From positions 1-35,160 of the forward strand of contig CAZQKU010000001.1 of the NCBI GenBank assembly GCA_964593965.1: a stretch of DNA of 35,160 nt. Reading direction: 5' to 3'. The stretch's first letter is position 1. Every line of letters begins with the position of its first letter. This stretch comes from an uncultured Candidatus Saccharibacteria bacterium (GTDB taxonomy: Bacteria > Patescibacteriota > Minisyncoccia > Phycocordibacterales > PALSA-1337). Below are positions 3,280 to 16,963 of the stretch, piece after piece. The notes under the pieces were generated by a model, which was given only the letters and a program-made list of their open reading frames with translations, ran no database searches and was not told the origin of the DNA. A program made the translations under genes and the position numbers.

Positions 3280-5013
3280 ATGTCCTTCATCGACACAATC
3301 CTCAATAAGATCACCATGTACCGTTTGGCGTTGTACTATTTGATATTTCTCGTTCTGGCCGCCGCAGTGCTCGGTATGTTCGGGCATGTGTCATACGGAC
3401 CGGTGGCTATTCTTTTTTCGGCATTCTATATCACCCTCGTCTGCCTCGTGGTTAATGCCGTCTTCGCCTATTTCTTCGAGGCACCGGCCAATCCCGAATC
3501 GGTCTACATCACCGCTCTCATTCTTACCCTCATCATCGCGCCGATCCATTCGGCTACTGACATCCTATTTTTCGCTGTAGCAACGTGGGCTTCGATCTGG
3601 GCAATGGCTTCGAAGTACATTCTCGCCATCGGCAAAAAGCATGTCTTCAATCCCGCCGCTATCGCTGTGGTCATCACCGCTTTTTCGGTCGGTTTGTCGG
3701 CGAATTGGTGGGTGGGCACGGTCTGGATGTTGCCGTTCGTCGCGGTTGGTGGCTTGCTCGTGGTGCGGAAACTTCAACGTTTCAAAATGATGGGGAGTTT
3801 CGTGGCGGCCGCCCTCGTCGTCGTGATCATTCATCATCCGGCGGTGGTGACGATATGGAAAGCTCTCGCCGAGACGCCACTTATTTTCTTCGCTTGTATC
3901 ATGCTGACGGAGCCATTGACCGCGCCTTCGACGCAGAAAATACGTATCGTCTACGGTGTTTTGGTCGGCTTGCTTTTTGCGCCATTTGTGCATATCGGTT
4001 CCATATATTCGACGCCAGAGCTGGCGCTCGTTGTCGGCAACGTTTTTGCTTTTATGGTCGTAAGTCCGAAGAAAAAGTTCGTTTTGAAACTGCGCGAGAA
4101 AAAGCAAGTGGCGGCGGGGACGTTCGAGTTTTGGTTCGAGGAAGCGGGAAAAGGCGGCGCGGGGAAAGATGGAACTCGCGGCAAACTTACCAATTTTACA
4201 TTCCGACCGGGTCAATATCTCGAGTGGACGCTTGAGCCGAAATTGGGTCTCCCGGAAAAATCGGACGGTTCATCGACGGCTATTTCATTTTCATCATTTA
4301 TCGCCGGTTTCCGCCGCATCTTTTTTAATATTTTTTCAGCGGACAATCGCGGTATTCGTCACTATTTTACTATTGCTTCATCGCCAGGAGAAGCGGCAGA
4401 AAAGGGCATTGCCATCGGAGTCAAATTTTATGGACATGTTGCGGGCGGTAGCGGACAGTCGAGTACTTTTAAAAAAGTTCTCATGGCTATGAAGCCCGGC
4501 GATACGATCGTGGCGTCGGGCATGGCGGGGGATTTTTTTCTGCCGCCGAAAGTTGTCACATCGATCAAGGGAAAAGATGTACCGACGAGCGATCAGCGCA
4601 TCGTCATGATGGCCGGTGGTATTGGTATTACGCCGTTTCGCAGTATGATTGCCGATTTGCTTGACAGGAATGAGCAGAGACCCATCCGTATTATTTATTC
4701 CAATAAGACTGCCGCCGACATCGCCTACAAAGACATCTTCGACGAGGCGAAGAAACGCCTCGGCGTGAAGACTGTCTATACCCTCACCGATATCAACACG
4801 GATACCAACCCGAATGCCATTCCTGCCGGCTGGCGCGGGCGGCGCGGTTTTGTGGACGCAAAAATGATCGAGGAAGAAATACCCAGCTATATGAACTGCC
4901 TATTCTATCTCTCCGGCCCGCGGGCTATGGTGACAGCGTACGAAAATATTCTCTTTGACATGGGAGTGCCGGGATCGCAGATCAAGAAGGACTTTTTCCC
5001 GGGGTTTGTATAG
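3280..5013 (+). CDS. Fusion protein: RnfD/NqrB-like polytopic membrane domain plus ferredoxin-NADP reductase-like FAD/NAD(P)-binding module
   Basis: 577 aa. The N-terminal ~250 aa are multi-TM and carry FFACIMLTEPLTAPS (compare FMxTDPVTxP of RnfD/NqrB). The C-terminal part has RHYFTIASSP (the RxYS FAD motif), MMAGGIGITPFRSM (the GGxGxxP NAD(P) motif) and YLSGPRAMV. Confidence 0.85.
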   Translation: MSFIDTILNKITMYRLALYYLIFLVLAAAVLGMFGHVSYGPVAILFSAFYITLVCLVVNAVFAYFFEAPANPESVYITALILTLIIAPIHSATDILFFAVATWASIWAMASKYILAIGKKHVFNPAAIAVVITAFSVGLSANWWVGTVWMLPFVAVGGLLVVRKLQRFKMMGSFVAAALVVVIIHHPAVVTIWKALAETPLIFFACIMLTEPLTAPSTQKIRIVYGVLVGLLFAPFVHIGSIYSTPELALVVGNVFAFMVVSPKKKFVLKLREKKQVAAGTFEFWFEEAGKGGAGKDGTRGKLTNFTFRPGQYLEWTLEPKLGLPEKSDGSSTAISFSSFIAGFRRIFFNIFSADNRGIRHYFTIASSPGEAAEKGIAIGVKFYGHVAGGSGQSSTFKKVLMAMKPGDTIVASGMAGDFFLPPKVVTSIKGKDVPTSDQRIVMMAGGIGITPFRSMIADLLDRNEQRPIRIIYSNKTAADIAYKDIFDEAKKRLGVKTVYTLTDINTDTNPNAIPAGWRGRRGFVDAKMIEEEIPSYMNCLFYLSGPRAMVTAYENILFDMGVPGSQIKKDFFPGFV

Positions 5014-5047
5014 GTTTATTATGTTTAATTAAGGAGGATGGCCTGTG

Positions 5048-5066
5048 TTGTGCCCGGGGTGGGACT
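5048..5066 (-). repeat. Orphan copy of the tRNA-Leu(UAA) 3' end (att-like direct repeat)
   Basis: Identical to 12454-12472 (16 nt of the tRNA 3' end plus 3 nt downstream). The sequence diverges immediately beyond it, so no complete tRNA is present here. Confidence 0.6.
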
Positions 5067-5195
5067 TGGTCACGGATAATTTTCTCGCCGTCGCTCGAAA
5101 ATTTCCGCGACCCCGCCTCGCGGTCTCGTCTGTTGACTCGACAACGCTCCGGCTTTCTCGTTCCACACGCGAAGCGCGAGGGCGCTTCGCTCCCA

Positions 5196-5430
5196 GCACA
5201 AACTCACTTTGTTCGTTTGTGCCGATTCCTGAACGAAGTTCGAACCTTTTTCGCCGCGAATCCGGAACAATGAGGTGTCGCTTCGCGACGCTTCCTTAGT
5301 GTGGGGTCGTCCCATTGCGCCTTCGCTCCGCTCGGCGCTGGGAGAAGGGCGGACGGCAGCCGGGGGTGTGGGGGAAGGTCGCCGTCCGCCCTTCCTCTTC
5401 GTTTTCGCGCGCCGCCCTGCAGGTTTTTTC
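5196..5430 (+). repeat. GC-rich hairpin-dense repeat, copy A (inverted relative to copy B)
   Basis: The reverse complement of 10523-10758 aligns over ~215 nt with a handful of substitutions and two 1-nt indels. It contains a perfect 14-bp stem (5344-5357 / 5381-5394). GC-rich structured sequence continues outward across 5067-5195 and as a 9-bp hairpin at 5462-5488. Confidence 0.8.
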
Positions 5431-5553
5431 GGGCGGGGGCGGAACCAATTCAGAAATCCTCGTGGCTCATTTCCACCATATGAGCCACAATAATATTTAG
5501 CGCATGAATTGATACTTTGCATCGCGCGGAGAACCCACGCGAGCGATATGTCC

Positions 5554-6144
5554 TTACTCCACCAATTTCACTAGGTAACGCGTTGTAATCGCGCTTGAGA
5601 TATGCAGAAGTTTTTGGACGTCTTCGTTGGCAAAGATTTTATTTTTTTGTGCGAACAGAATGATCTTGTCGAGCTTTTTCTGCTTGTTGGACTGAATCTT
5701 AGCTTGAGCTTTGATGAGCAAGGCGTGAATGAATCCGGCTTGATATTGTTGCGCCGACGATTGCGCCTGTGGCACTGGCGAAGTCAGTGGCGTCGGCGCG
5801 GACGGCGCAGACTGTGGTTCAGATTGATTTGGAACCGGTTGAACTTCTTCAGAAGCTGGCGGATTATTGTTTACAGGAGTTGGCTGGTCTTCAACCGGCG
5901 TTTCTGGCTCATTTGGAGCAGAAATTGGCTCATCTGGCACCTCGCTTTTTGGCTGATTTACCCCTTGATTTTGATCTTCGACGGAAGTGTTAATAGAAAC
6001 GCTTTTAGGCGATTCTGGGGCCTCTGTGGGCAAATCGGTAGGCGTAGAGCCATCTGACTGGCTAGAAACGTCAGAAATCGGTACTTCATGAGTTTGAGCT
6101 TCTTCTGGAGGCGTAGCTATGTCTTGTGATTGATCATCATCCAT
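5554..6144 (-). CDS. Hypothetical protein: acidic/Pro-rich disordered N-terminus with a C-terminal winged-helix-like domain
   Basis: 196-aa ORF. The low-complexity N-terminal ~130 aa are rich in P/E/Q/S. The C-terminus reads KIILFAQKNKIFANEDVQKLLHISSAITTRYLVKLVE and looks HTH-like. It lies 25 nt downstream of the giant gene on the same strand. Confidence 0.6.
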   Translation of the reverse strand: MDDDQSQDIATPPEEAQTHEVPISDVSSQSDGSTPTDLPTEAPESPKSVSINTSVEDQNQGVNQPKSEVPDEPISAPNEPETPVEDQPTPVNNNPPASEEVQPVPNQSEPQSAPSAPTPLTSPVPQAQSSAQQYQAGFIHALLIKAQAKIQSNKQKKLDKIILFAQKNKIFANEDVQKLLHISSAITTRYLVKLVE

Positions 6145-6168
6145 GAGGAGGAATATTTTACCAGATTT

Positions 6169-9100
6169 TCATTTCATCAGCGCGTTGACCTCATTCATCG
6201 TTGCTACTCCAAAGAATCCAGTCGGGACCGTCAATCCTTGCGGCTCGAGTATCTCTTTCTTGTACGCTTGCTGGAACTTCATTAAAGCGGCTTTCGTTGC
6301 AAGACCGAAATATGTCGTCTCGTGTCCGGGAGAGCCTGCTCCATTCTTGGCGACGATGAAACCTTGAGAATTGAGAAATATCTGCAACTTCTTAACATCG
6401 CTACTGGTCACACCAGATTTTAATGTCCGTAAAAACGACGATCCGGAATTCGACGACGGCGTTTTTACAGAAATAACATTTTGCGTCGGAACATTTTGTG
6501 CTGGAATCGTTATTCCGTATTGATTAGCAACTTGCTGTGCCTGCGTGTAGAAGCCCATCGCCAGAAGATTATTGACTTGGCTTGAGGCACTGCCACCGCT
6601 AGAGCTGTAGCTGGTAGTAACAGCGGGTGGTAGGACTGCGTTTTTGACTGTTACTGTTATTAATGACGATGTAGCGTAATTCCCCGCGTTATCTCGTGCC
6701 ACGGCAACAATGGTATGCAATCCGTCAGAAACTGCTGTTGAATCCCATGTTGTCGTATATGGAGCGACCGTGATTTCTGATCCGATGTTGGTGGTACTAT
6801 CCAACTTGAATTGCACGCCTGCGACAGCTACATCATCGGAAGCTGTCGCGGACAAAGAGACCGCCGAACCGGCAACGGTAGAACCGCCTGAAGGTGATGT
6901 GAGAGCAACCGTCGGAGGTGTGGTATCAGTGGTCGTAAATGGCAGGATTGAGCCCGTGCTCGTTCCGGCCGAGTTCACCGCATATGCGCGGAAGTAGTAG
7001 GTGGTATTGGGTGTGAGGCCTGTAAAACTCTGACTGAATGTCGTTATACCAGTCTGACCGTTCAGGGTTGTAGTCGCAATGACCGTGGCGAGAGTCGGTG
7101 ATGTGCCGTATGCAAATCCAGATTGCGTAGCATCGGCTCCGCCAGTCGAAGTAATCGAAGCGTTCAGAGTTGCAGTCGAAGTCGAGATCGGCGAAGCGGC
7201 GACAGTTGAAATCGACGGTGCCACTATCGGGTCGCCATACATACCGAAGTCAGAAAAGTTAGAAGTACTGCAAGTTACCGTTTTGGCTCCTGTATTCACC
7301 GAGCAACCAGTGAGCGCGGTCCATGAACTGCCATCATATCTGTAGATCTTCAATGAAGACTCCAGAATGCCTGTAATATCACCAGAGACATAGCTCATCG
7401 TCACGGTCAGTGCTTGGCTGAATGTTGGTAGAGTCGTAGTGGCATCGGTCAAAGCTTTCAAATTGAAAATCTTATTGCCCACGAGCGACTTACTTGTCGG
7501 CGCGCCGGCTGAAGCAATGAAAGCTGTCGGGTCAAGACTTTTGATCTGGAAATTGGCGAAAGTGGATGTGCTGGTGAAAGATGTTGGAACAGTTATAGAT
7601 AGAGTATCCAGATTTAATGGTCCACCGGAAGCCGTAGTGAGCATGCTGGATGTCGAAGTAGATACAGCCGCATTGCCGGTACAACCGGTGGTAATGAAAG
7701 TTGAATCAGTAGAGCTGGCCGTACCATTTTTGAGATATACAAGATCGTTTGTGATGCTTAGGCGATTACTACGGACACGATAGTGGTACAAGACACAAGA
7801 TTGCAAGCCAGACACAGTAATCGAGTGACCGGTAATTTTTCGAGTGGTGGAAGAATTATCCTGTTCAGCGGTAGAGGTGGAATAATTGGAGGTGAGATCA
7901 AAATCGACGATGCTGGAAGACGAGGCATTCGATGTCCAACCGATGATGGCAGAAGATGCCGTCGTAGAAGTAGAAATATTACTTATTAAGGTGAGGGGAT
8001 GAATTAAAGCGTCAATTGCAGGCCATATACGATTTGCAATTACCGTTTCTCCAACAGTGTTCTGGTGCGTACCATCAGGATTATAGTAAGTGGTATTAGA
8101 GTTCTGTCCCGCTTGCCCCATAACAGGGTCATTGCCCATGTCTACTAACGCTTGGGCATATGTAGTATAGTTAGCGCGTAACGAAGCATTTGTAGCTTGC
8201 CTAACAACTTCGCTTGGATTCTCGGTATTGGGCAATACGGTAACGGCTATATTCTCCCAACCTACAGCTTGTCGAGCACTATAATAAGTGGGCAAATTAG
8301 TATATGCTGGTTCATTTGTTCCCTCCCATCCAACAAGTATGTTATTGACTAATGTTGAGTCAAAAAGCGGATCAACTTTGGTTGGCGCGTCGACTATCAA
8401 TTGGCTTGTCGTTTTACCAGAGACCGCCTGATTTACATATGGCACCTTAACAGTTTCTAAGCCATCTATGATGTCAGAGAAAGGAATAGCTCCTAACGCG
8501 CCGCCGGCAGAGATGCTATTACCATCGTATACTACTCTGTTCGTAAGTGGTAATGGCCACGTCCATGGAATATTGAACCTTGAAGCAAGATATGCATTTA
8601 CATTGTTAATCTCATTGAAAGAAAGAGCTCTATTATATATATAAACGGCTTGTATATAACCATTAAATAAAAAACTGCCATCTCCTCCTATATTCCAAAC
8701 AGATGTTGTGTCAAAGTTTGGGAGACCCGCACCCTCAGTTGCAAAAGTATTAAATGCAGATGGAGATCCATCAGAAGGAAGATAGCCATTCAGATAAATT
8801 AACTGGGTGCCGCTTGTACTGATGTTTGGATCGGGAGTGAATGAATCCTCATAAACATTTCCGTGTAATAAACTATTTGTGGTCGAAGAAAAATTGTAAT
8901 TGCCGTCGCCATAATTTTTGACCTGTGAACTACTTGTAACAAGCCACCATGCTCGATTTGAAGAAGATCCCTTATGCAACAAATTAGCATATGTAACACC
9001 AGATGAAGTTTGTTTATACACAATAAAGACGGTTGATGAACCAGTGTTGCCAAAATTAAGAACACTGGGATTACCTAAAGTTAGAAGCGTATTGGCACTA

Positions 9101-9384
9101 GCTCCAAATTGTACGCCAGAATATCCGCCGTCTTTATTTAAAGTTAATAACGGCTGGTTAGTAGCATTCGTATTCGTCGCATCATAACCATTCCCCGACT
9201 TATCAGCCCACAAAGCGATCTTATCGCTCTCTAATGTCGCAGGCTGTGTCTTGGCAGTATCCTTGTAGAAAGAATTTGGTTGAGAGGCATCCAACCATAG
9301 TTGAAGACCCGGTATATCGGTTGGAGCGGAAATAGCAAACGCTTTTTGAGCTGACGATCCGAAAAATATAGCAAAAACCGCCAA
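6169..9384 (-). CDS. Giant secreted surface protein: LamG-like, SGNH/GDSL hydrolase, FN3-like repeats, Ig-like domain and a C-terminal peptidoglycan-binding domain
   Basis: 1071 aa. LamG-like segment: LQLWLDAS...NGYIQAVYIYNRALSFNEINNV. SGNH blocks: VVYDGNSISAGG and DGTHQNTVG. FN3 segment: GFAYGTSP...TGLTPNTTYYFRAYAVNSAG. Ig-like segment: TPPTVALTSP...ASDDVAVAGVQFKLD. PG_binding_1-like segment: VKKLQIFLNSQGF...YFGLATKAALMKFQ. The only in-frame start is TTG at 9384, which truncates an in-frame signal-peptide n-region. See the (CT)n finding for the alternative ATG at 9457. Confidence 0.85.
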   Translation of the reverse strand: MAVFAIFFGSSAQKAFAISAPTDIPGLQLWLDASQPNSFYKDTAKTQPATLESDKIALWADKSGNGYDATNTNATNQPLLTLNKDGGYSGVQFGASANTLLTLGNPSVLNFGNTGSSTVFIVYKQTSSGVTYANLLHKGSSSNRAWWLVTSSSQVKNYGDGNYNFSSTTNSLLHGNVYEDSFTPDPNISTSGTQLIYLNGYLPSDGSPSAFNTFATEGAGLPNFDTTSVWNIGGDGSFLFNGYIQAVYIYNRALSFNEINNVNAYLASRFNIPWTWPLPLTNRVVYDGNSISAGGALGAIPFSDIIDGLETVKVPYVNQAVSGKTTSQLIVDAPTKVDPLFDSTLVNNILVGWEGTNEPAYTNLPTYYSARQAVGWENIAVTVLPNTENPSEVVRQATNASLRANYTTYAQALVDMGNDPVMGQAGQNSNTTYYNPDGTHQNTVGETVIANRIWPAIDALIHPLTLISNISTSTTASSAIIGWTSNASSSSIVDFDLTSNYSTSTAEQDNSSTTRKITGHSITVSGLQSCVLYHYRVRSNRLSITNDLVYLKNGTASSTDSTFITTGCTGNAAVSTSTSSMLTTASGGPLNLDTLSITVPTSFTSTSTFANFQIKSLDPTAFIASAGAPTSKSLVGNKIFNLKALTDATTTLPTFSQALTVTMSYVSGDITGILESSLKIYRYDGSSWTALTGCSVNTGAKTVTCSTSNFSDFGMYGDPIVAPSISTVAASPISTSTATLNASITSTGGADATQSGFAYGTSPTLATVIATTTLNGQTGITTFSQSFTGLTPNTTYYFRAYAVNSAGTSTGSILPFTTTDTTPPTVALTSPSGGSTVAGSAVSLSATASDDVAVAGVQFKLDSTTNIGSEITVAPYTTTWDSTAVSDGLHTIVAVARDNAGNYATSSLITVTVKNAVLPPAVTTSYSSSGGSASSQVNNLLAMGFYTQAQQVANQYGITIPAQNVPTQNVISVKTPSSNSGSSFLRTLKSGVTSSDVKKLQIFLNSQGFIVAKNGAGSPGHETTYFGLATKAALMKFQQAYKKEILEPQGLTVPTGFFGVATMNEVNALMK

Positions 9385-9431
9385 AATGACGATGACACAT
9401 TTTGCCTTCCAATTTTTAGAGAGAGCTTCTA

Positions 9432-9446
9432 CTCTCTCTCTCTCTC
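9432..9446. repeat. (CT)7.5 dinucleotide microsatellite in the 5' region of the giant surface-protein gene
   Basis: CTCTCTCTCTCTCTC is read directly at 9432-9446. It lies between an out-of-frame ATG (9457-9455, minus strand) and the open frame of the 1071-aa ORF. Confidence 0.9.
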
Positions 9447-9603
9447 GTTAATCGCATAATTAGTTTTTAATACGGCCACGGTTAATAATTTAGTGGACTT
9501 TTAATGACTGCTCCAAATCGTACTTATATACTCTTGTGAGATTGTGCTAATTATAAACCATCTATGCATTTTATGGAAATCAAAGTATATGCACCGTTTT
9601 TGC

Positions 9604-9633
9604 TTGACTTGCAGTAACCTTTAGGTATATACT
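9604..9633 (+). promoter_or_regulatory. Sigma-70-like promoter with no ORF downstream
   Basis: TTGACT at 9604-9609, then either N16 to TATATA (9626-9631) or N18 to TATACT (9628-9633). About 50 nt further on come two hairpins and a T-run (9648-9689). Confidence 0.4.
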
Positions 9634-9665
9634 CTTACTATCGGATCGGGGTGTCCCCGGTCGGT

Positions 9666-9689
9666 AAAAGGTCCCGCAAGGGACTTTTT
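9666..9689 (-). terminator. Bidirectional hairpin terminator downstream of the DUF3800 gene
   Basis: AAAAGGTCCC-GCAA-GGGACTTTTT sits directly after the stop codon at 9694-9696. A/T runs on both sides allow it to function on either strand. Confidence 0.55.
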
Positions 9690-9693
9690 ACGT

Positions 9694-10476
9694 TTATGGA
9701 AAGACTTTCAATCCGTAGCCGTCCACTTTTCCGTTGCTTCCTTTTCTCAATTTACTCTCTATTATCTGGAACGGTATGTAAGGTTCTTCCGAATTCAAAA
9801 CATGCCGAGCGATCGGATACGCGCACAGGTCGGCGATTTGCAGACCTATATCGTTATCTTTTTTCAATTTCATATTGAATTCGATGATGCGCTGCTTGAA
9901 GCGATCGCTACCGACATGGTATGTCCCCTTATCGATCACGCTGTTGTAGTGCGCGAGCAATTGAGTGTCTTCTTTCTTGCCTCTTTTTTCTATGTTGATC
10001 GACACGGTCGAAGCCGAGGTCTTTTCATCAGTGCAGAAGACCAATCGTTCGAGAATATATGAAAGACAGATCGTGTAAGGATTCTGAGCGATCTTTCCGT
10101 ATTTCTCGATATGCTTCTTCTTGTCGATCGCGACGGCTATGACCGTAAACCGTGCATCTTTTATTATCGCGTTGAGCTTTTCATAAAATTTTTTCTTCAG
10201 GTCGAGGTCGAATAGTATCTGGAATGCGCCGTCACATTTCCTGATATCTCTAGAATGCAGGATGACTTCGGTAGTCTTGAAAAACTCCATCTTGAGATCA
10301 TTGATCCTGCTGACCATGTCGTTATACTCAGTATCCTCAAAAAGACAGCCTGCAAGCAGAAATATCGGAAAGTTTTCATCGACAAAACCCAGACCGTGAT
10401 CACCGGTTTCATCAAGAAAGAAATTATACTTTTTCGGTTGAGTGGGCATACGATGCGTGGTTATTCTTTCTGTCAT
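9694..10476 (-). CDS. DUF3800 domain protein
   Basis: 260 aa. The N-terminal YNFFLDETGDHG motif is characteristic of DUF3800. TATGAT lies 5 nt upstream of the ATG. Confidence 0.75.
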   Translation of the reverse strand: MTERITTHRMPTQPKKYNFFLDETGDHGLGFVDENFPIFLLAGCLFEDTEYNDMVSRINDLKMEFFKTTEVILHSRDIRKCDGAFQILFDLDLKKKFYEKLNAIIKDARFTVIAVAIDKKKHIEKYGKIAQNPYTICLSYILERLVFCTDEKTSASTVSINIEKRGKKEDTQLLAHYNSVIDKGTYHVGSDRFKQRIIEFNMKLKKDNDIGLQIADLCAYPIARHVLNSEEPYIPFQIIESKLRKGSNGKVDGYGLKVFP

Positions 10477-10522
10477 ATTTTATCATAAAATTTCAAAAAG
10501 AAATCTCTCCTCTTATTATCCT

Positions 10523-10758
10523 GAAAAAACCTGCAGGGCGTCGCGCGAAAACGAAGAGGAAGGGCGGACGGCGACCTCCCCCACACCCCCGGCCGCCGTC
10601 CGCCCTTCACGACGCGCCGAGCGGAGCGAAGGCGCAATGGGACGACCCCACACAAGGAAGCGTCGCGAAGCGACACCTCATTGTTCCAGATTCGCGGCGA
10701 AAAAGGTTCGAACTTCGTTCAGGAATCGGCACAAACTCACTTCGTTCGTTTTTTGTGC
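10523..10758 (-). repeat. GC-rich hairpin-dense repeat, copy B
   Basis: Inverted copy of 5196-5430. The same 14-bp stem is present (10559-10572 / 10595-10608). The differences between copies fall mostly in loops and spacers. Confidence 0.8.
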
Positions 10759-10845
10759 GCCTTGTGGGACGATATTGGAACGGAAATAACCAAATAAAAA
10801 GTACAACCTTCCAGATATTGAGGGGGTTGATCTTCCTTTTATCCG

Positions 10846-11022
10846 TTAATTGCTAGCCTCTTTTTTCATGGTAACAACCAAATCCTTGACCATTCCGTTA
10901 ATTTTTCCGAGATACATTTCCATCTCCTGCATAATCTTAAGCTTTTCAGCTGGTGAAGTACTTGCTTTCTTCAATTTCTCAATACTCTCTTTTATTTGTT
11001 CTTTTGGTATTTTATTTATCAT
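10846..11022 (-). CDS. Small 58-aa helical protein (below the ORF-track cutoff)
   Basis: Manual translation: MINKIPKEQIKESIEKLKKASTSPAEKLKIMQEMEMYLGKINGMVKDLVVTMKKEASN. It starts 20 nt downstream of the 124-aa gene on the same strand. No SD sequence is present. Confidence 0.35.
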   Translation of the reverse strand: MINKIPKEQIKESIEKLKKASTSPAEKLKIMQEMEMYLGKINGMVKDLVVTMKKEASN

Positions 11023-11041
11023 ATTTTTATAATTTATTTAA

Positions 11042-11416
11042 TTACCCAAGAATATCAATTCTATCTGCCACAAAAGCCGCAACTTTTGCAAGAGAAGTAA
11101 CGGCCGTCATTCCGATGGTAACGACGAGTGCTTCTTTGGTATTTATCCCCTCCATATATGCATCTGCCGCGACGAGACCACCCATAAGAGCGGGGAACGA
11201 CCAAAGAATTGCATCCTCAGTAATAAACGTTTTTACACCTTCGATCCCCTTTTTTACCGCCGCACTCCATCCATTCTTTGGCTCTTTAGTAGCCAATTGA
11301 TCAAATTGTTCAAGATTCGTTTGTAACTCAGCCGCAGTAGTATCAAGTTTTTCTTGTTGAGCACCAATCTCTCCCTCAATTCCTGAATTTTCAGGGTTAG
11401 ATTCTATATTAGACAT
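11042..11416 (-). CDS. Hypothetical protein (124 aa) with a hydrophobic C-terminal half
   Basis: ORF with a coiled/acidic N-terminus and the hydrophobic segments ILWSFPALMGGLVAADAY and LVVTIGMTAVTSLAKVAAFV. TAATAT lies 7 nt before the ATG. Confidence 0.6.
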   Translation of the reverse strand: MSNIESNPENSGIEGEIGAQQEKLDTTAAELQTNLEQFDQLATKEPKNGWSAAVKKGIEGVKTFITEDAILWSFPALMGGLVAADAYMEGINTKEALVVTIGMTAVTSLAKVAAFVADRIDILG

Positions 11417-11499
11417 ATTTTTTATATTACATTAATAATAAAACGTAGACACATATTATTATAACGTTTTTTCGTTAAGTAGCTATGTTTTTAGTACCC

Positions 11500-11528
11500 T
11501 TGACATAATAACCTATTTGGTATACACT
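11500..11528 (+). promoter_or_regulatory. Sigma-70-like promoter for the 129-aa membrane protein gene
   Basis: TTGACA at 11500-11505, then N15 to TGgTATACA (extended -10, 11518-11526). The downstream leader ends in a GGAGG SD at 11593-11597. Confidence 0.5.
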
Positions 11529-11603
11529 TATGGCAGATAAGGTCTGGTTTTACGTAGCCTTAGTTCCTGAACAATCAAACATTCAACAATTGGAGGAATT
11601 CAT

Positions 11604-11993
11604 ATGTTTATCAAACGCCTTGTAAATTCCGTAATCACAATTCCTGTTCTGTTCGTCATCTCCGCAGTCTTGATCGTCGCTTCTGCTTACCTCGGACACT
11701 ACCTTGACTATTTCGAAGCGACGCACCAGCCGATAGGTGTCGGAGCGGTTGCGTTTCTCATGGGAGCCGCGATGCTGGACTGTCTGATGTTTCTCGGGGC
11801 TGTCTTCATCAGTACGGGTGCTGTCGCCGTTCTCATCACAGGCCACGGCCTATTGTGGCGGCGAGTGGACGAGCACGACTTTCTGCAAAATCCCGACGGA
11901 TCGGTTTTCCGAAGATTCGAGAAGGCAGACCTCATTTGGAGATGGAGTCCAATCTTCAACGGGCGGAAATTGATGGGATACAGCGATTTTTGA
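11604..11993 (+). CDS. Small membrane protein (129 aa)
   Basis: Two or three hydrophobic helices (ITIPVLFVISAVLIVASAYL, GVGAVAFLMGAAMLDCLMFLGAVFI). A GGAGG SD sits 6-7 nt before the ATG, which is one of the few SD-led genes in this window. Confidence 0.65.
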   Translation: MFIKRLVNSVITIPVLFVISAVLIVASAYLGHYLDYFEATHQPIGVGAVAFLMGAAMLDCLMFLGAVFISTGAVAVLITGHGLLWRRVDEHDFLQNPDGSVFRRFEKADLIWRWSPIFNGRKLMGYSDF

Positions 11994-12011
11994 TGAGGAT
12001 TGCGATAGACG

Positions 12012-12050
12012 AAATCCACTTTCAGCGATGAGGGTGGATTTTTATTTTTT
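12012..12050 (+). terminator. Rho-independent terminator
   Basis: AAATCCAC (12012-12019) pairs with GTGGATTT (12034-12041) and is followed by TTTATTTTTT. Confidence 0.45.
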
Positions 12051-12456
12051 AAACATGGACGTACTGTTCGATACAGAGTTAATTTGCTTCTAAAATAGAG
12101 TGTCTTTGACTAAGCCGTACTGCTGCTCTATAGCAGGGTTATAAAAATTGCTTCTAATTTCTTCTAACAAAGATAGTCAGAAATTGGCTTCATAGTAAGT
12201 ACTTCGAGATTCACCAACAGGATGTAAGAGCTTCATATCAACCGTTGTTACTTTCGAACAGATTAAAAAAGTCTTTCTAGACGGCAGTACAGCCTCCGCA
12301 CGGTATCTCATCGTCGATGATGAATAAAAGCGCAGAATGTTGGAAAAGATACTTTCGAACGCTTCCATTACCAACAAAAATATAGCTCAACACAGCTTTA
12401 AAAGTCCATATTCAATGCTCGCGAAAGTGTCGAAAAATGCTGATTTTTCTACTTTG

Positions 12457-12541
12457 TGCCCGGGGTGGGACTCGAACCCACATGATCTTTCGATCGACAA
12501 ATTTTAAGTCTGTTGCGTCTAGCCGATTTCGCCACCCGGGC
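12457..12541 (-). tRNA. tRNA-Leu (anticodon UAA), class II with a long variable arm
   Basis: Folded by hand. Acceptor stem GCCCGGG/CCCGGGC plus discriminator A. Anticodon loop CTTAAAA. Variable arm GATC-GAAA-GATC. T arm GTGGG-TTCGAGT-CCCAC. No encoded CCA. Confidence 0.9.
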
Positions 12542-12585
12542 GTTTCTTTATTTTTTACATCATTGAGCTGTCCGAATTTTTCGGG

Positions 12586-12659
12586 AGGCGTAGGCCGGGA
12601 TCGAACCGGCGTATAACAGTTTTGCAGACTGTCGCGTTTACCAACTTCGCCACTACGCC
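12586..12659 (-). tRNA. tRNA-Cys (anticodon GCA)
   Basis: Folded by hand. Acceptor stem GGCGTAG/CTACGCC. Anticodon stem-loop ACAGT-CTGCAAA-ACTGT. T arm GCCGG-TTCGATC-CCGGC. Confidence 0.9.
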
Positions 12660-13080: not shown

Positions 13081-14625
13081 TTATGCGACTTTTTCCACGA
13101 TTTTAAAACCCTCAATTTTATCGCCGACGGCGATTTCTATTTTTGATTCAATAAGAGTGCCGAAATCATACCCTTCACGCACGCTCGATGCTTTGACTTT
13201 CTGCTGTTGCAATTCGCGGATCTTGCCGCGGCCGATGTCGGTATCGCGTCGCAGAATTTTTACTTCGGAACCGACGGTTATCTCGCCCTCCTGGACTTTG
13301 CCGCCGATGATTTGTTTGTCTTTATTCTTGCTGAAAATGGCCAGAATTTTTGCTTTACCAGTGGACTGCTCTTCGTATTCTTTCGGCACTTTTTCGGCGA
13401 CGGCGGCCTTGACGAATTTTATCAGATCATAAATGACACTGAATTCTTTGAGATTGACGGTAGTGGTCGGCCGTTCGAGGATGCTTTTGGCTTTTACATC
13501 CGGCTTGGCGTTGAAGGCCACAATGACGATGGAAGGATTGCTCTGGGCGGTCTTGACATCGCTTTCGGAGACGACACCGATACCTTCGATGATGATGCGG
13601 ATGGCCACTTTGTCGTTCTTAATTTTTGCCAGCTCATGCGTGATGCCGTCAAGACTGCCGACGGTATCGGCTTTGACGATGAGAGGAAGGATGATGGCGT
13701 CGGCCGCATCGCTATTTAATTTTATTTTTTGCAATCGCGGATCAGGTCTCCATTCGTCGGCCATTTTTTCTGCCACTTTTTTATCCGTAACAATAGCGAA
13801 AGGCGAACCGACCGGTGGTAATTTGTTCCAACCGACGACGGAGACCGGACTGGAAAAGGTAGCGTAGGTGAGCGACGTGCCGGTAAAATCTTCAAGAATG
13901 CGTACTGGAGCGAAGCTGTCTTCGGCCACGACATACATGCCCGTTTCGATATGACCGTCTTGTATCACCAACGTCGCACTGATGCCTTTTTTATTATCAA
14001 GATGGGCTTCGACGATGGCACCCGTGCCCAACTTTTTACTATCGGCTTTGAGATCCGCCACTTCGGCGGTGAGCATAATAAGATCAAGAAGTTCGGGTAC
14101 GCCGACACCGGTCACAGCGGAAATCGGCACAAAAGAGACATCACCGCCGTAACCTTCAAGATATATTTCATTTTCAGCCAGATTAATTTTCGTCCGTTCA
14201 ATGTTTGCTGACGGCTTATCTATTTTATTGATGGCCACGATGTAGGGGATTTTTTCGTCTTTAATGCAGGCGAGCGCCTCCAAAGTCTGCGGCTTGACGC
14301 CGTCTTCAGCCGAGACAACAAGAATGGCAATGTCGGCCACGTGCGCTCCGCGCTCGCGAATGTCACAGAAAGCTTCATGCCCCGGGGTGTCAATGAAGGT
14401 TATTTTTTTCGGTGCACTTCCCGCAGTAGTGTGTTCGACTTCGTAAGCTCCGAGATGTTGGGTGATGCCGCCGGCTTCGCCCGCCACGACATTGGTCTTG
14501 CGAATATAATCGAGCAAAGTTGACTTGCCATGGTCAATATGCCCCATGACCACGACGACGGGTGGACGTATAGAGAGAGTCGCAACGGGCGATTTTTTGA
14601 TTGTTTTTTTATTTTCAGTGGCCAT
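13081..14625 (-). CDS. infB: Translation initiation factor IF-2 (short form lacking the long N-terminal region)
   Basis: 514 aa. GTPase motifs [13 protein letters not shown] and NKID are present, followed by the C-terminal IF-2 domains. Confidence 0.95.
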
Positions 14626-15661: not shown

Positions 15662-16963
15662 TTATTTATTTTGATTAGTGCAGTGTTCAATAACAACATT
15701 CCACAATGCTCCTGCTGTATCACGCGGTTTGCCATTGAGAGGAAATAAGTGCACGTCAATAAAAGGTAAACTGTTGCATTCGATGATGCCGAAATGACGC
15801 TGGTCGGAACGAGACTGATCAGAATGCAGTCGGCTCGACAGCGGTTGAGTGATGTCGCTGACAATAAAATCCGCACCGACAAGCTGATCATCAAGAATAA
15901 CAGCGATTTTCTCGAGCAGGGTAATGATATCCGGATGAGCACTATCAGTAACGTCAGTCGAGCCGCCACCTGCGCCGATGGAAGTTTTTTTGGACAACAT
16001 GATGATTTCACCTTTCTTGAGAATGGTATCGAGGTCGAAAATCATATCAAAGTTTCCTTCTCTTAAGTCGGCGATTTCTTTTTCGATTTTTATTTTTCCA
16101 TACACCGGCCCTTGCCGCTCCGGCCGCCGGTTCTCCATTTCTATGAGTTCACCCAGGCTGTGCATACCATCACCCGTCACCTGCGGCGGATCTTTGCGAC
16201 GGATACCGATGACGTTACCACCGATAACGGTGCCGCGATAGACATGACCGACAAGCTCCTCTTCGACGATGACCCACGGCGAAAGCTTTTTAGCTTTGAT
16301 GAAAGCTTGGCGAAGTTCGGTCTCATTGGTGATGCCTGTGGTGGTGTGGCGGCTTCGTGAGCCAGTCGAAGGTTTGACGATGACGCTCGTGTGAGAAATA
16401 TCCGAAACGACATCGTCAGACTTTTGTGAATGTTTCAACTGTCCGAAAATCTCTACAGCTCTCTTCCATGTGAATGCTGTGCCTCCACAGGCGACAGGGA
16501 TGCCGGCTTCAGCTAGTTTTTTCTTTAAAATAGGTTTATTGTCCACCCATGCAAGGGAAACAGGTAGACCTTTTTCACCCGATAATGTGAACGCGGGACG
16601 GGGCAGACCATCAAAGACGATGGCTCTTGGTTTTTTTCTGGTCCCGACGATGATTTCCGCCACAAATATTTCCCGACTGATACCGAATGGTCGAAATTCC
16701 CACATCTCAATACCACGTCGCTTGGCTTCAAGCCAGACGCAGAGGGCGCGGCCACTCGTCAGAGCGTCAGGCTCATGGATGATGGTGCCGAGGCACATGG
16801 TCGCTAGGCCTTTTAAAAATGTCGGATGAAAAGAAAACTGAAAAGAAATCGGCAGGCTTATTTTTTCAATCGCCGCATTCATCTTTTCAACGAAATGGTT
16901 GACCGGAGTATGACCGCAGTCGGGACAGAGCGCTTTGACAGGAGGTTGGGCTGAAACTGACAT
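15662..16963 (-). CDS. ATP-grasp ligase resembling the N-terminal ATP-grasp module of cyanophycin synthetase
   Basis: 433 aa. Matching blocks: VIVKPSTGSRSRHTTTGI, VIVEEELVGHVYRGTVIGGNVIGIRRKDPPQVTGDGMHSLGELIEMENRRPERQG, SIGAGGGSTDVTDSAHPD and GIIECNSLPFIDVHLFP. An N-terminal CPDCGH Zn-ribbon-like motif is present. No Mur-ligase half is present. Confidence 0.75.
   Translation of the reverse strand: MSVSAQPPVKALCPDCGHTPVNHFVEKMNAAIEKISLPISFQFSFHPTFLKGLATMCLGTIIHEPDALTSGRALCVWLEAKRRGIEMWEFRPFGISREIFVAEIIVGTRKKPRAIVFDGLPRPAFTLSGEKGLPVSLAWVDNKPILKKKLAEAGIPVACGGTAFTWKRAVEIFGQLKHSQKSDDVVSDISHTSVIVKPSTGSRSRHTTTGITNETELRQAFIKAKKLSPWVIVEEELVGHVYRGTVIGGNVIGIRRKDPPQVTGDGMHSLGELIEMENRRPERQGPVYGKIKIEKEIADLREGNFDMIFDLDTILKKGEIIMLSKKTSIGAGGGSTDVTDSAHPDIITLLEKIAVILDDQLVGADFIVSDITQPLSSRLHSDQSRSDQRHFGIIECNSLPFIDVHLFPLNGKPRDTAGALWNVVIEHCTNQNK

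What the first reader, a model, noticed from the sequence alone, without database searches (positions are those of the whole stretch)
5067..10758. Two ~235-bp GC-rich, hairpin-packed inverted repeats flank a 5.1-kb three-gene cassette
Segment 5196-5430 is the reverse complement of 10523-10758, with a few substitutions and two 1-nt indels over ~215 nt. Both copies are far more GC-rich than their surroundings and are stacked with stems. One is a perfect 14-bp stem, GAAGGGCGGACGGC/GCCGTCCGCCCTTC, whose 22-23-nt G-rich loop carries the inter-copy differences. Others include GTCGC-TTC-GCGAC and GCGCC...GGCGC. Copy A continues outward as further GC-rich hairpins (a 9-bp stem at 5169-5190; CGCGA...TCGCG) and runs directly into the orphan tRNA-Leu fragment. 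The ORFs that cross the repeats are Arg/Pro/Gly junk, and they change frame between the two copies, so the repeats are non-coding. One asymmetry stands out. The outermost hairpin (GCACAAAC...GTTTGTGC at 5196-5222 and 10729-10758) has its loop in the same + strand orientation in both copies, while everything inside is inverted. That is the pattern expected if the segment between the stems had been flipped. Three explanations are possible: (a) a new structured ncRNA family present in two copies, (b) long terminal inverted repeats of a non-autonomous element, or (c) recombination substrates that invert the cassette carrying the giant surface-protein gene.
Basis: seen in the sequence. Interest (0 to 1): 0.78.

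Follow-up and report, generated by a model that had tools for sequence, protein, structure and literature searches.

The report
Conserved end-modules of a decayed integrative island
The two GC-rich inverted repeats are real and belong to a conserved, previously undescribed non-coding module that marks the ends of gene-carrying islands in tiny Patescibacteria (Candidatus Taylorbacteria); complete relatives pair this module with a large serine recombinase and insert at the tips of tRNA genes, and the copy in this window is a broken-down member.

Summary
Window 5215-5433 is about 96% reverse-complementary to 10520-10736, and independent assemblies give the same sequence. It is not a private repeat. 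About 40 related copies occur in Taylorbacteria/Parcubacteria contigs.

One copy always lies just downstream of, and convergent with, a homologue of the 196-aa winged-helix gene (window 5497-6144). A second, inverted copy often lies 4-13 kb away across highly variable cargo.

In every copy, homology starts at a 5-8 nt core (TGTGCC, TGCGG or TGCTG). In complete relatives this core joins the module to the 3' end of a large serine recombinase gene, or joins that 3' end to the last bases of tRNA-Arg, tRNA-Gln or tRNA-Ser.

So the repeat is best read as the element-side attachment arm of a recombinase-driven, tRNA-targeting island family. The window's member is decayed:
- it has no recombinase;
- its winged-helix gene carries a nonsense mutation;
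- copy B is shortened;
- a 19-nt duplicate of the tRNA-Leu end lies beside copy A.

The hairpins are conserved with some compensatory changes and near-invariant G-rich loops, but neither strand is clearly favoured, so an RNA role is neither shown nor excluded. No inversion of the cassette was seen in this strain. The recombinase segment is inverted between two near-identical relatives.

The parts
5048..5066 (-). Orphan 3' end of tRNA-Leu. It is a 19-nt exact direct repeat of 12454-12472 and is the putative far boundary of a 7.4-kb island.
   Evidence: Direct repeat D4; sequence. Synteny with relatives carrying 85% and 78% identical orthologues of the upstream gene ends at about 5013-5020.
5068..5195 (.). 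GC-rich, hairpin-containing stretch found only in this strain. Unexplained. It is not homologous to the outer (recombinase-end) module of relatives.
   Evidence: BLAST of 5067-5440 finds this part only in re-assemblies of the same strain. Local alignments to 8 outer modules are not above shuffles.
5196..5222 (.). Small hairpin. Its 3' arm GTTTGTGC(C) (5215-5223) is the recombination core at which family homology begins. Its 5' arm is the inverse of that core. The loop is direct with respect to the hairpin at copy B.
5215..5445 (+). Copy A, the p196-proximal module. In order: core TTTGTGCC; block 1 with the palindrome GTTCGAAC (5238-5245); a variable insert (5266-5312); block 2 with the GCGCC/GGCGC stem; the 14-bp hairpin (5344-5394) with its G-rich loop; and a terminal C-rich/G-rich helix.
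5462..5488 (.). Hairpin GTGGCTCAT-loop-ATGAGCCAC between p196 and copy A. It is conserved next to p196-proximal copies and is probably the p196 terminator. Its loop occurs in both orientations across the family.
5497..6144 (-). p196, the family's constant partner gene. It has a disordered N-terminal half, a long helix and a winged helix-turn-helix. In this window an in-frame TAA (5554-5556) replaces a conserved Gln codon and removes the 19-aa wing.
6169..9384 (-). Cargo: a 1071-aa surface-type protein (Big_7, fn3-like and PG_binding_1 domains).
   Evidence: It is not conserved in other family members. An analogous 2327-aa protein with a C-terminal PG_binding_1 domain is cargo in L058.
9694..10476 (-). 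Cargo: a DUF3800 protein. Its start codon lies 44 nt from the inner end of copy B.
   Evidence: A homologue is cargo in L017 only.
10520..10736 (-). Copy B, the p196-distal inverted module. It has the same core, block 1 and block 2. It lacks the last ~12 nt of the family consensus and has no recombinase-end module.
10729..10758 (.). Small hairpin at copy B (GCACAAAC-TCACTTCGTTC-GTTTTTTGTGC).
10846..12377 (.). Four small ORFs of unknown function (58, 124, 129 and 66 aa). They occupy the position where complete relatives carry the large serine recombinase.
   Evidence: There is no recombinase remnant by tblastn.
12454..12541 (-). Intact tRNA-Leu(taa). Its 3' end plus 3 nt (…GGGCA|CAA; + strand TTGTGCC, 12454-12460) matches the core at the start of both repeat copies. 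tRNA-Cys follows at 12584-12659.

Best explanation
The two repeats are two copies of the element-side attachment arm of a family of site-specific integrative islands of Candidatus Taylorbacteria. I call this arm P'. It runs about 220 nt: a short recombination core, then block 1 with a GTTCGAAC palindrome, then block 2 with GC-rich hairpins that have near-invariant G-rich loops.

In complete members a large serine recombinase gene (LSR) ends in an 'outer module' (P). P is joined through the core either to P' (an intact attP-like region) or to the last bases of a tRNA gene (an integrated junction). A P' without P sits at the other end of the island, just downstream of, and convergent with, the winged-helix gene p196. 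When the attP-like region is also present and inverted, the cargo plus p196 is bracketed by inverted P' arms. That is the architecture seen in the window.

The window's island lies at about 5067-12453, between tRNA-Leu and a 19-nt duplicate of its 3' end. It is a decayed member with no recombinase, no P, a nonsense mutation in p196 and a shortened copy B. It is therefore probably immobile.

Shown:
- family membership;
- the constant p196 linkage;
- variable cargo;
- the exact core boundary and its match to tRNA ends;
- the linkage to the recombinase;
- one natural inversion between inverted module copies.

Inferred:
- that the recombinase cuts at the core;
- that the roughly 170 nt beyond a normal 50-bp serine-integrase site (the conserved hairpins) act in control. 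They could be a binding platform for p196, or a structured 3' region of the recombinase transcript that integration disconnects, as with lambda sib.
For: Family: the hairpin pattern recovers 17 metagenome contigs and 13 loci from 8 Patescibacteria/Parcubacteria MAGs with the same loop. BLAST and nhmmer extend homology over block 1 and block 2.

p196 linkage: a p196 homologue lies next to a copy in 16 pattern-found loci. It also does so at all 7 places (L055-L062; 6 different p196 proteins) that were found by protein alone, always convergent.

Inverted pairs with the same inward-facing geometry occur in L012, L017, L021, L024, L034, L048/49, L055 and L058.

Cargo differs between loci. It includes a SMODS-like NTase, a methyltransferase, ABC transporters, AbiV, a reverse transcriptase, Schlafen/AlbA_2, AAA_21, RhuM, R-M genes, LexA-like genes and giant surface proteins.

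Recombinase: the ORFs next to the P-bearing copies have Resolvase, Recombinase and Zn_ribbon_recom domains, and one matches PHROG integrase at E=8e-76. Their 3' ends lie inside P.

Core: all copies begin homology at TGTGCC, TGCGG or TGCTG. The end of P (…TTTTTCGCGAA-TTTG) is fused through the matching core to rc-tRNA-Arg (L014), rc-tRNA-Gln (L035) and rc-tRNA-Ser (L054). P-less copies have unrelated flanks up to that base.

Window: the end of tRNA-Leu matches the window's core. There is a 19-nt tRNA-end direct repeat, and synteny with relatives breaks at the island edge.

Decay.

Inversion: L058 1-1151 is the exact reverse complement of L059 1-1151, and the next 19 kb are identical.

Hairpins: 87.7% of cells are paired against 42-48% for slid controls. 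Eleven pairs show double changes against 6.5 +/- 1.6 in shuffles. The same G-loop hairpin motif occurs in both P and P' on the same strand.

p196 is a confidently modelled winged helix of ArsR/MarR type.
Against: - No excised circle, empty site or recombination product was observed for any member. The two relatives examined differ from the window downstream of the 577-aa gene but do not show a clean empty tRNA-Leu site.
- In the window the sequence next to the intact tRNA-Leu is not the P end. The tRNA fragment is separated from copy A by 150 nt of unexplained GC-rich DNA and a hairpin.
- A 19-nt duplication is longer than the 5-8-nt cores seen at the recombinase junctions, so this particular island may have arrived or been rearranged by another route.
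- Serine integrases normally need only about 40-50 bp sites (PMC12286644 abstract), so the 220-nt conserved arm is not explained by recombination alone.
- Why an intact attP-like copy persists inside integrated elements in inverted orientation is not explained.
- The pattern-found loci are biased towards near-identical hairpins. In protein-found loci the module is only about 67-83% identical.
Confidence: 0.6

Rival explanations
1. The module is a gene for, or the 3' UTR of, a structured non-coding RNA functionally tied to p196. It could be an sRNA with C-rich loops if read on the p196 strand, or G-rich, Shine-Dalgarno-like loops if read on the other strand. On this view its position at island ends is secondary. 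This is not mutually exclusive with the attachment-arm reading.
For: - The module is GC-rich in a 46% GC genome.
- Stems are kept through compensatory changes while the loop GGGG(G)TGTGGGG stays near-invariant.
- The p196-sense strand of copy A folds better than shuffles (z = -3.6, 0 of 200), against z = -1.5 on the other strand.
- Linkage to p196 is constant and convergent.
Against: - There is no Rfam family, even at E<=10.
- The RNAalifold covariation term is +0.4/+0.5, meaning none, on both strands.
- Three of the hand-drawn helices never vary.
- G.U-compatible cells number 39 against 26 on the two strands, so no strand is favoured.
- There is no consensus promoter or terminator inside either copy.
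- The 5' boundary coincides to the base with a recombination core.
Confidence: 0.2
2. The repeats are recombination substrates of a functional inversion switch that flips the cassette. The flip might change which genes are read from an inward-facing promoter in the module, giving phase variation of the surface protein.
For: - Inverted geometry around the cassette recurs in about 10 loci.
- In most pairs the first cargo gene starts 25-85 nt from the inner end of the distal copy and is co-oriented with it.
- A serine recombinase is adjacent in complete members.
- A real inversion between inverted module copies exists between L058 and L059.
- The flipped loops of small hairpins show local inversion activity.
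Against: - All independent contigs of the window strain show one orientation with unmixed copy-specific differences.
- The window has no recombinase.
- Six loci (L047, L052, L056, L060, L061, L062) have only the proximal copy within the 6-10 kb of interior sequence available.
- Cargo is mostly not surface proteins.
- L024 and L034 break the co-orientation rule.
- The observed flip concerns the recombinase segment, not the cargo.
Confidence: 0.1
3. The repeats are terminal inverted repeats of a non-autonomous or composite transposon mobilised in trans by a transposase. The 23-27-nt direct repeat (the small hairpin) would be a target-site duplication.
For: - Long inverted repeats bracket variable cargo.
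- A 23-nt direct repeat flanks them in the window (D3).
- Several short contigs begin and end in the repeat (L012, L034).
Against: - No transposase is found in any locus.
- The sharply conserved end is the inner one, while the outer end is a tRNA-matching core joined to a recombinase gene.
- Other members lack flanking direct repeats or the hairpin.
- Single-copy members are common.
- Contigs that end in the repeat are what assemblers produce at inverted repeats.
Confidence: 0.05

Closest known systems
tRNA-gene (tDNA) genomic islands and tycheposon-like cargo elements of streamlined genomes (Islander, PMC4383910; Prochlorococcus tycheposons, bioRxiv 10.1101/2020.12.28.424599)
   Same: Like these, it is a cargo-carrying, site-specific integrative element next to a tRNA gene. 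It has an intact tRNA at one end and a duplicated 3' fragment at the other. Cargo is highly variable and often defence or nutrient-uptake genes. Degenerate remnants without an integrase accumulate beside the tRNA. The hosts have very small genomes.
   Different: - The integrase in complete relatives is a large serine recombinase. [quoted passage not shown] In tycheposons, 910 of 937 elements use tyrosine recombinases.
- The crossover core covers only the last 3-4 nt of the tRNA plus a few bases downstream.
- There is a 220-375-nt conserved, hairpin-rich arm and a dedicated winged-helix gene.
- The arm is often present twice, in inverted orientation.
Large serine integrase systems (phiC31, Bxb1, SCCmec Ccr, clostridial Tn4451/Tn5397) — recalled from general knowledge, plus the abstract of PMC12286644
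   Same: The recombinase has the Resolvase, Recombinase and zinc-ribbon architecture. The integrase gene lies next to its attachment site. A short core is shared between the element and the target.
   Different: Known systems need only about 40-50 bp sites and no arms. Here about 170 further nucleotides of conserved structured DNA follow the core. The same G-loop hairpin motif sits on both sides of the core. The recombinase body is flanked by inverted duplicates of its own 3' end and is found in both orientations.
Lambda sib retroregulation of int (recalled from textbook knowledge; an analogy only)
   Same: A structured element lies just beyond the attachment core, downstream of the integrase gene and on its sense strand. 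Integration therefore separates it from the gene.
   Different: Nothing here shows transcription, RNase III processing or any effect on recombinase expression. The recombinase family is different. The element is also kept convergent to a second gene (p196).
Yeast 2-micron plasmid and chloroplast-type flip-flop architecture, and hairpin-loop inversions of chloroplast DNA (recalled from general knowledge; an analogy only)
   Same: Unique segments are separated by a pair of large inverted repeats, and one segment is found in both orientations (L058 vs L059). Small hairpins have loops found in both orientations.
   Different: The element is integrated, not a free plasmid. There is no evidence that flipping is recombinase-catalysed or has any role in replication.

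Membership tests
tDNA-type integrative genomic island | An intact tRNA gene at one end and a direct repeat of its 3' end at the other | tested here: met
   tRNA-Leu is at 12456-12541(-). There is a 19-nt exact repeat at 5048-5066 and 12454-12472, in the same orientation.
tDNA-type integrative genomic island | An integrase gene on board | tested here: not met
   The window has no recombinase domain or remnant. Relatives L014, L028, L032, L035, L055 and L058/59 carry a large serine recombinase.
tDNA-type integrative genomic island | Presence/absence polymorphism, with an empty site in relatives | tested here: inconclusive
   Relatives with 85% and 78% identical upstream genes lose synteny exactly at the island edge and lack the repeat. 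Neither shows tRNA-Leu adjacent.
Large serine integrase att site | A short core shared by the element site and the target, with hybrid junctions in the integrated state | tested here: met
   This is met in relatives. P-core-P', P-core-tRNA and flank-core-P' junctions are seen with three core classes matching tRNA-Arg, tRNA-Gln and tRNA-Ser. The window has only flank-core-P' type junctions.
Large serine integrase att site | Recombination catalysed by the cognate integrase | not testable with these tools
   This needs an in vitro or in vivo assay, or reads showing excision.
Transposon with terminal inverted repeats | A transposase, in cis or co-occurring | tested here: not met
   No transposase domain is found in the window cassette or in about 30 cargo proteins of relatives.
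Transposon with terminal inverted repeats | A fixed-length target-site duplication at every insertion | tested here: not met
   Only the window shows the 23-27-nt flanking direct repeat. The flanks of 11 other copies do not.
Invertible DNA segment (invertase or shufflon type) | Both orientations present in a population | tested here: not met
   For the window cassette, the JGI, ENA and Logan contigs all show one orientation. Read-level data were not available. For the recombinase segment of relatives, both orientations are seen.
Known RNA family (Rfam 15) | A covariance-model match | tested here: not met
   At gathering threshold only the two tRNAs match. At E<=10 only generic hairpin noise appears.
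Novel structured ncRNA | Statistically supported covariation on one strand | tested here: inconclusive
   The RNAalifold covariation term is about zero. The manual structure has 11 double-change pairs against 6.5 +/- 1.6, but the sequences are related. There is no strand bias.
Dispersed intergenic repeat (REP/MITE-like) | Many copies per genome in unrelated contexts | tested here: not met
   There are two copies in 35 kb and 1-3 exact-pattern copies per MAG. Context is constant, with p196. Whole genomes could not be scanned with a profile.

The most novel reading that the evidence does not exclude
The module may be a two-part control device for a serine-integrase island, not just a site. The same G-loop hairpin sits on both sides of the crossover core, on the recombinase sense strand. 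The recombinase body is flanked by inverted copies of its own 3' end and flips between two contexts. In one it reads into P-core-P' (the structured arm), and in the other into P-tRNA. On this reading the element is a 2-micron-like flip-flop whose orientation, together with binding of the winged-helix protein p196 to the arm, sets recombinase expression or directionality. It would also be a lineage of serine integrases that specifically targets the extreme 3' ends of tRNA genes in CPR bacteria.
Probability: 0.15. Interest if true: 0.8.

Novelty: new variant of a known kind. Interest (0 to 1): 0.55.

Why it matters
- Mobile elements of Patescibacteria/CPR are poorly characterised. The one study I found reports islands only from generic predictors (PMC12455944).
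- This finding defines a recognisable island family by three signatures: the GC-rich arm, the p196 winged-helix gene, and a large serine recombinase at tRNA ends.
- The family carries defence systems, transporters and giant surface proteins, which is the kind of flexible gene pool that matters for episymbiotic ultra-small bacteria.
- Serine integrases that target tRNA tips through a short, re-programmable core (three core classes for different tRNAs) would be unusual. They could be useful as site-specific integration tools.
- For annotation, it explains why assemblies of these genomes break at this repeat.
- It also flags the window's copy as a fossil, not an active switch.

Tried and rejected
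- Rfam at gathering threshold and at E<=10: nothing.
- BLAST of the repeat against phage and plasmid collections, and a pattern scan of viral contigs: no match.
- Fifteen pattern hits in high-GC organisms (Brevibacterium, Celeribacter, Gemmataceae and others) have unrelated loops. I discarded them as chance hairpins.
- tRNA adjacency as a universal feature: rejected. It is seen only at recombinase-side junctions (L014, L035, L054) and in the window.
- Repeat-crossing ORFs as real genes: rejected. They have no domains and change frame. The long ORFs that run through the outer module in relatives are the recombinase reading on into GC-rich DNA, and in L014 into a tRNA gene.
- DUF3800-associated RNA motifs, recalled from memory as a lead: no Rfam hit, and DUF3800 is cargo in only two loci.
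- Block 1 as a decayed tRNA 3' end or T-arm: considered because of GGTTCGAAC, but it does not parse as a T-arm plus acceptor. Left as a palindrome of unknown role.
- Block 1 as a sigma-70 promoter: spacing is inconsistent across members and the scan finds nothing.
- Window 5068-5195 as a decayed outer module: not supported.
- Search for an empty site using two close relatives of the 577-aa gene: synteny breaks at the right place, but no clean empty site was found.
- PHROGs for the small island ORFs: nothing useful.
Full report
**1. The observation**

The inverted repeat is real. The repeat finder reports three gapless blocks between 5200-5433 and 10520-10751 at 92-95% complementarity. A gapped alignment gives about 216 nt at about 96% identity. 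It contains two 1-nt indels, one 4-5-nt patch and four substitutions.

- The 14-bp stem has a 22-23-nt G-rich loop.
- GC content is raised (0.63 and 0.56 against about 0.46).
- There are further GC-rich hairpins outside copy A.
- The tRNA-Leu fragment is present (5048-5066 is identical to 12454-12472).
- The loop of the small outer hairpin has the same orientation in both copies (direct repeat D3).
- ORFs across the repeats have no domains and change frame.

The window comes from JGI contig Ga0455670_0009578. The same strain was assembled independently from ENA ERZ27250145 and Logan SRR6946416. Those contigs have identical repeat sequences, the same copy-specific differences and the same junctions. 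This rules out an assembly artefact. It also shows only one cassette orientation at contig level.

**2. The repeat is a family**

No Rfam family matches. Nothing matches in phage, plasmid or viral-contig collections.

A relaxed pattern for the big hairpin found 25 metagenome loci and 20 genome loci. Thirty of these carry the same near-invariant loop, GGCCGGGGGTGTGGGGGRAGGTC. They come from Patescibacteria/Parcubacteria MAGs and related metagenome contigs. The other fifteen are unrelated hairpins in high-GC organisms.

BLAST and an nhmmer profile show two conserved blocks, at window ~5216-5265 and ~5313-5445. A variable insert lies between them. The inner end is sharply conserved.

Contigs with two copies always have the window's geometry, with inner ends facing each other and 4.4-13 kb between them. 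Several short contigs begin and end inside the repeat, as expected when assemblers meet inverted repeats.

**3. Constant and variable parts**

The only gene that recurs is a homologue of the 196-aa ORF at 5554-6144, which I call p196. It lies next to one copy with its 3' end facing the copy's inner end.

p196 has at least 270 cluster-level relatives. They are named only as hypothetical proteins of Candidatus Taylorbacteria. I fetched contigs by p196 protein alone, so this sample is unbiased with respect to the DNA pattern. All seven places (L055-L062) have a diverged copy of the module just downstream of p196, at 67-83% identity by BLAST where alignable. Only L055 and L058/L059 have the second, inverted copy within 10 kb.

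The cargo between or beside the copies is heterogeneous. It includes:
- a SMODS-like nucleotidyltransferase;
- methyltransferases;
- amino-acid ABC transporters;
- AbiV/HEPN;
- a reverse transcriptase;
- Schlafen/AlbA_2;
- an AAA_21 ATPase;
- RhuM;
- restriction-modification genes;
- LexA-like and HTH-M78 regulators;
- DUF3800;
- giant surface proteins.

p196 itself is modelled as a disordered N-terminal half, a long helix and a winged helix-turn-helix (pLDDT about 95). Its best structural matches are ArsR/MarR repressors.

The window's p196 carries an in-frame TAA in place of a conserved Gln codon. This removes the 19-residue wing.

**4. Link to a large serine recombinase and to tRNA ends**

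In L014, L028, L032, L035, L055 and L058/59, a gene of about 530-620 codons lies just outside one repeat copy. It has Resolvase, Recombinase and Zn_ribbon_recom domains, and one example matches PHROG 'integrase' at E=8e-76.

Its last ~65-130 codons lie in a further conserved 'outer module', which I call P. P contains a GC-rich hairpin with a G-rich loop that is almost identical to the big hairpin of block 2 in other members.

The copies fall into three kinds:
- P + core + block 1 + block 2, next to the recombinase;
- core + block 1 + block 2 only, next to p196;
- P + core fused directly to the 3' end of a tRNA gene.

The boundary is exact. Every copy begins homology at TGTGCC, TGCGG or TGCTG. 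P ends …TTTTTCGCGAA-TTTG. The tRNA junctions read:
- …CGCGAA-TTTG-TGCC|CCCACC (rc tRNA-Arg, L014);
- …GCGAA-ATTG-CTG|CGGGAC (rc tRNA-Gln, L035);
- …CACGAA-TTTG-CGG|AGGCGG (rc tRNA-Ser, L054).

This set of junctions (P-core-P', P-core-tRNA, flank-core-P') is the signature of site-specific recombination at a short core that covers the last bases of a tRNA gene.

The window's tRNA-Leu ends …GGGCA|CAA. On the + strand this is TTGTGCC, the same core that starts both window copies.

**5. Reading of the window**

In the window frame, the family architecture is:

tRNA fragment | P' arm | p196 and cargo | inverted (P)-core-P' | recombinase with P | intact tRNA.

The window fits this order. It has the tRNA-Leu fragment (5048-5066), copy A, then p196, the 1071-aa protein and DUF3800, then copy B, then tRNA-Leu (12456-12541).

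The window also differs from complete members:
- The recombinase and every P are missing.
- Four small unknown ORFs occupy the recombinase position.
- p196 is truncated.
- Copy B lacks its last ~12 nt.

Relatives with 85% and 78% identical orthologues of the upstream 577-aa gene keep synteny up to its stop codon. They lose it exactly there and carry no module. I did not find a clean empty site.

I conclude that the window holds a decayed, probably immobile member of the family.

**6. How it may work**

Shown: the core boundary, the recombinase and tRNA junctions, the p196 linkage, and variable cargo.

Inferred: the recombinase cuts at the core and inserts the element at tRNA tips. Serine integrases normally need only ~40-50 bp (abstract of PMC12286644). 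The extra ~170 nt of strongly conserved hairpins must therefore do something else.

The evidence for structure is as follows:
- A hand-specified 38-pair structure is paired in 87.7% of cells, against 42-48% for slid controls.
- It has 11 pairs with double changes, against 6.5 +/- 1.6 in shuffles.
- Examples of compensatory stems are GGGCGTGACGGAA/TTCCGTCACGCCC and GGTGCGGAA/TTCCGCACC, around a conserved GGGG(G)TGTGGGG loop.

Stem covariation with a fixed loop points to intrastrand pairing, in RNA, ssDNA or a cruciform, and not to a simple dimer operator.

The evidence against a clear RNA role is this:
- RNAalifold finds no covariation signal.
- Three helices never vary.
- G.U-compatible cells number 39 against 26 on the two strands.
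- No promoter-like or terminator-like site lies inside the copies.

Two mechanisms seem most likely to me. The arm could be a binding platform for p196. Or it could be a structured 3' region of the recombinase transcript that integration disconnects, which is the position lambda sib occupies. Neither is shown.

**7. Inversion**

L058 and L059 come from two samples and are identical over 19 kb. They differ by an exact inversion of the segment carrying recombinase codons 1 to about 456 and its upstream region (L058 1-1151 is the reverse complement of L059 1-1151).

In six genomes the recombinase body is flanked by inverted copies of its own 3' end. P always starts right after …KVGSNP (GTCGGTTCGAACCC). 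The gene therefore stays complete in either orientation. In one orientation it reads into P-tRNA, and in the other into P-core-P'.

Small hairpins also flip. The p196-terminator hairpin has loop TGGTGGA in some members and TCCACCA in others. The window's outer hairpin has its loop flipped between copies A and B.

So inverted module copies are recombinationally active in this family. For the window's cassette there is no evidence of flipping.

**8. Comparison with known systems, and novelty**

The closest concepts are tDNA genomic islands and the tycheposons of Prochlorococcus. Both are cargo elements at tRNA genes in streamlined genomes. Both leave partial tRNAs and degenerate remnants (PMC4383910; bioRxiv 10.1101/2020.12.28.424599).

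This family differs in several ways:
- It uses a serine recombinase, not a tyrosine recombinase. [quoted passage not shown]
- Its core lies at the extreme 3' tip of the tRNA.
- It has a long structured arm, present on both sides of the core.
- It has a dedicated winged-helix gene.
- Its arm is often duplicated in inverted orientation.
- Its recombinase segment flips.

The one paper I found on horizontal transfer in Patescibacteria reports islands only from IslandViewer predictions and does not mention this module (PMC12455944).

I rate it a new variant of a known kind.

**9. Unresolved**

- The GC-rich stretch at 5068-5195 is unique to this strain.
- The origin of the small hairpin at both copies is unclear. 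It could be a loop flip or a 27-nt direct duplication.
- The tRNA-Leu duplication is 19 nt, whereas recombinase junctions elsewhere share only 5-8 nt.
- It is unclear why integrated elements keep an intact attP-like copy in inverted orientation.
- It is unclear whether proximal-only loci (L056, L060-L062) have a recombinase further away.

Noticed in passing
window 5497-5556 (- strand): The p196 reading frame continues after an in-frame TAA (5554-5556) as GHIARVGSPRDAKYQFMR*. This matches the conserved C-terminal wing of the family, so it is a nonsense mutation (CAA to TAA) and not the natural stop.
   Followed up: yes
L058:1-1420 vs L059:1-1420 (JGI 3300021520 vs ENA ERZ27300010): A ~1.7-kb segment holding most of a large serine recombinase gene is exactly inverted between two otherwise identical contigs. 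The right breakpoint lies directly after GGTTCGAACCCA, at the start of the duplicated 3' end of the gene.
   Followed up: partly
window 5462-5488 and homologous positions in L011, L017, L021, L040, L055, L056, L058, L060, L062: A conserved hairpin between the p196 stop and the repeat has the same stem, but its 7-9-nt loop occurs in two reverse-complementary states (TGGTGGA / TCCACCA) across family members.
   Followed up: partly
window 5013-5067; L063:5064-5125; L064:11560-11656: Synteny with two related genomes (FMN_bind - ApbE - RnfD/NAD-binding fusion gene) ends exactly at the stop codon of the 577-aa gene. All three genomes have different DNA downstream, so this is a hot spot of rearrangement.
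   Followed up: partly
window 5068-5195: A GC-rich stretch with its own hairpins (for example a 9-bp stem at 5169-5190) lies between the tRNA-Leu fragment and copy A. It has no detectable relative in any fetched locus.
   Followed up: partly
window 25130-25336 / 25685-25891 and 25332-25451 / 25917-26036: Two direct repeat pairs (207 nt at 88% and 120 nt at 78%, spaced ~555-585 nt) lie inside the 1257-aa ORF at 24126-27899. They are probably tandem domain repeats of a large surface protein.
   Followed up: no
window 16051-16090 and 32767-32806: A 40-nt inverted repeat (88% complementary) links two distant coding regions. It may be a shared protein motif or chance.
   Followed up: no
L058:11144-11200 and L060:11191-11250 (outer flanks of p196-proximal copies): Two different genomes share the same flank (AAGTGTCCACTTTATrGGGTACAGATCA) right up to the core. 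This suggests the same insertion site, or inheritance of one insertion.
   Followed up: no
L054:5460-5645: tRNA-Ser is followed by ~20 nt of reverse-complemented outer-module end, and then a forward partial outer module plus the full repeat. It looks as if the recombinase and most of both outer modules were deleted between the inverted copies, a second recombinase-less member like the window.
   Followed up: partly
window 13081-14625 (- strand): IF-2 is only 514 aa and RbfA follows directly, which is typical of reduced CPR genomes. Together with the Taylorbacteria names of p196 relatives, this places the window in Parcubacteria.
   Followed up: no
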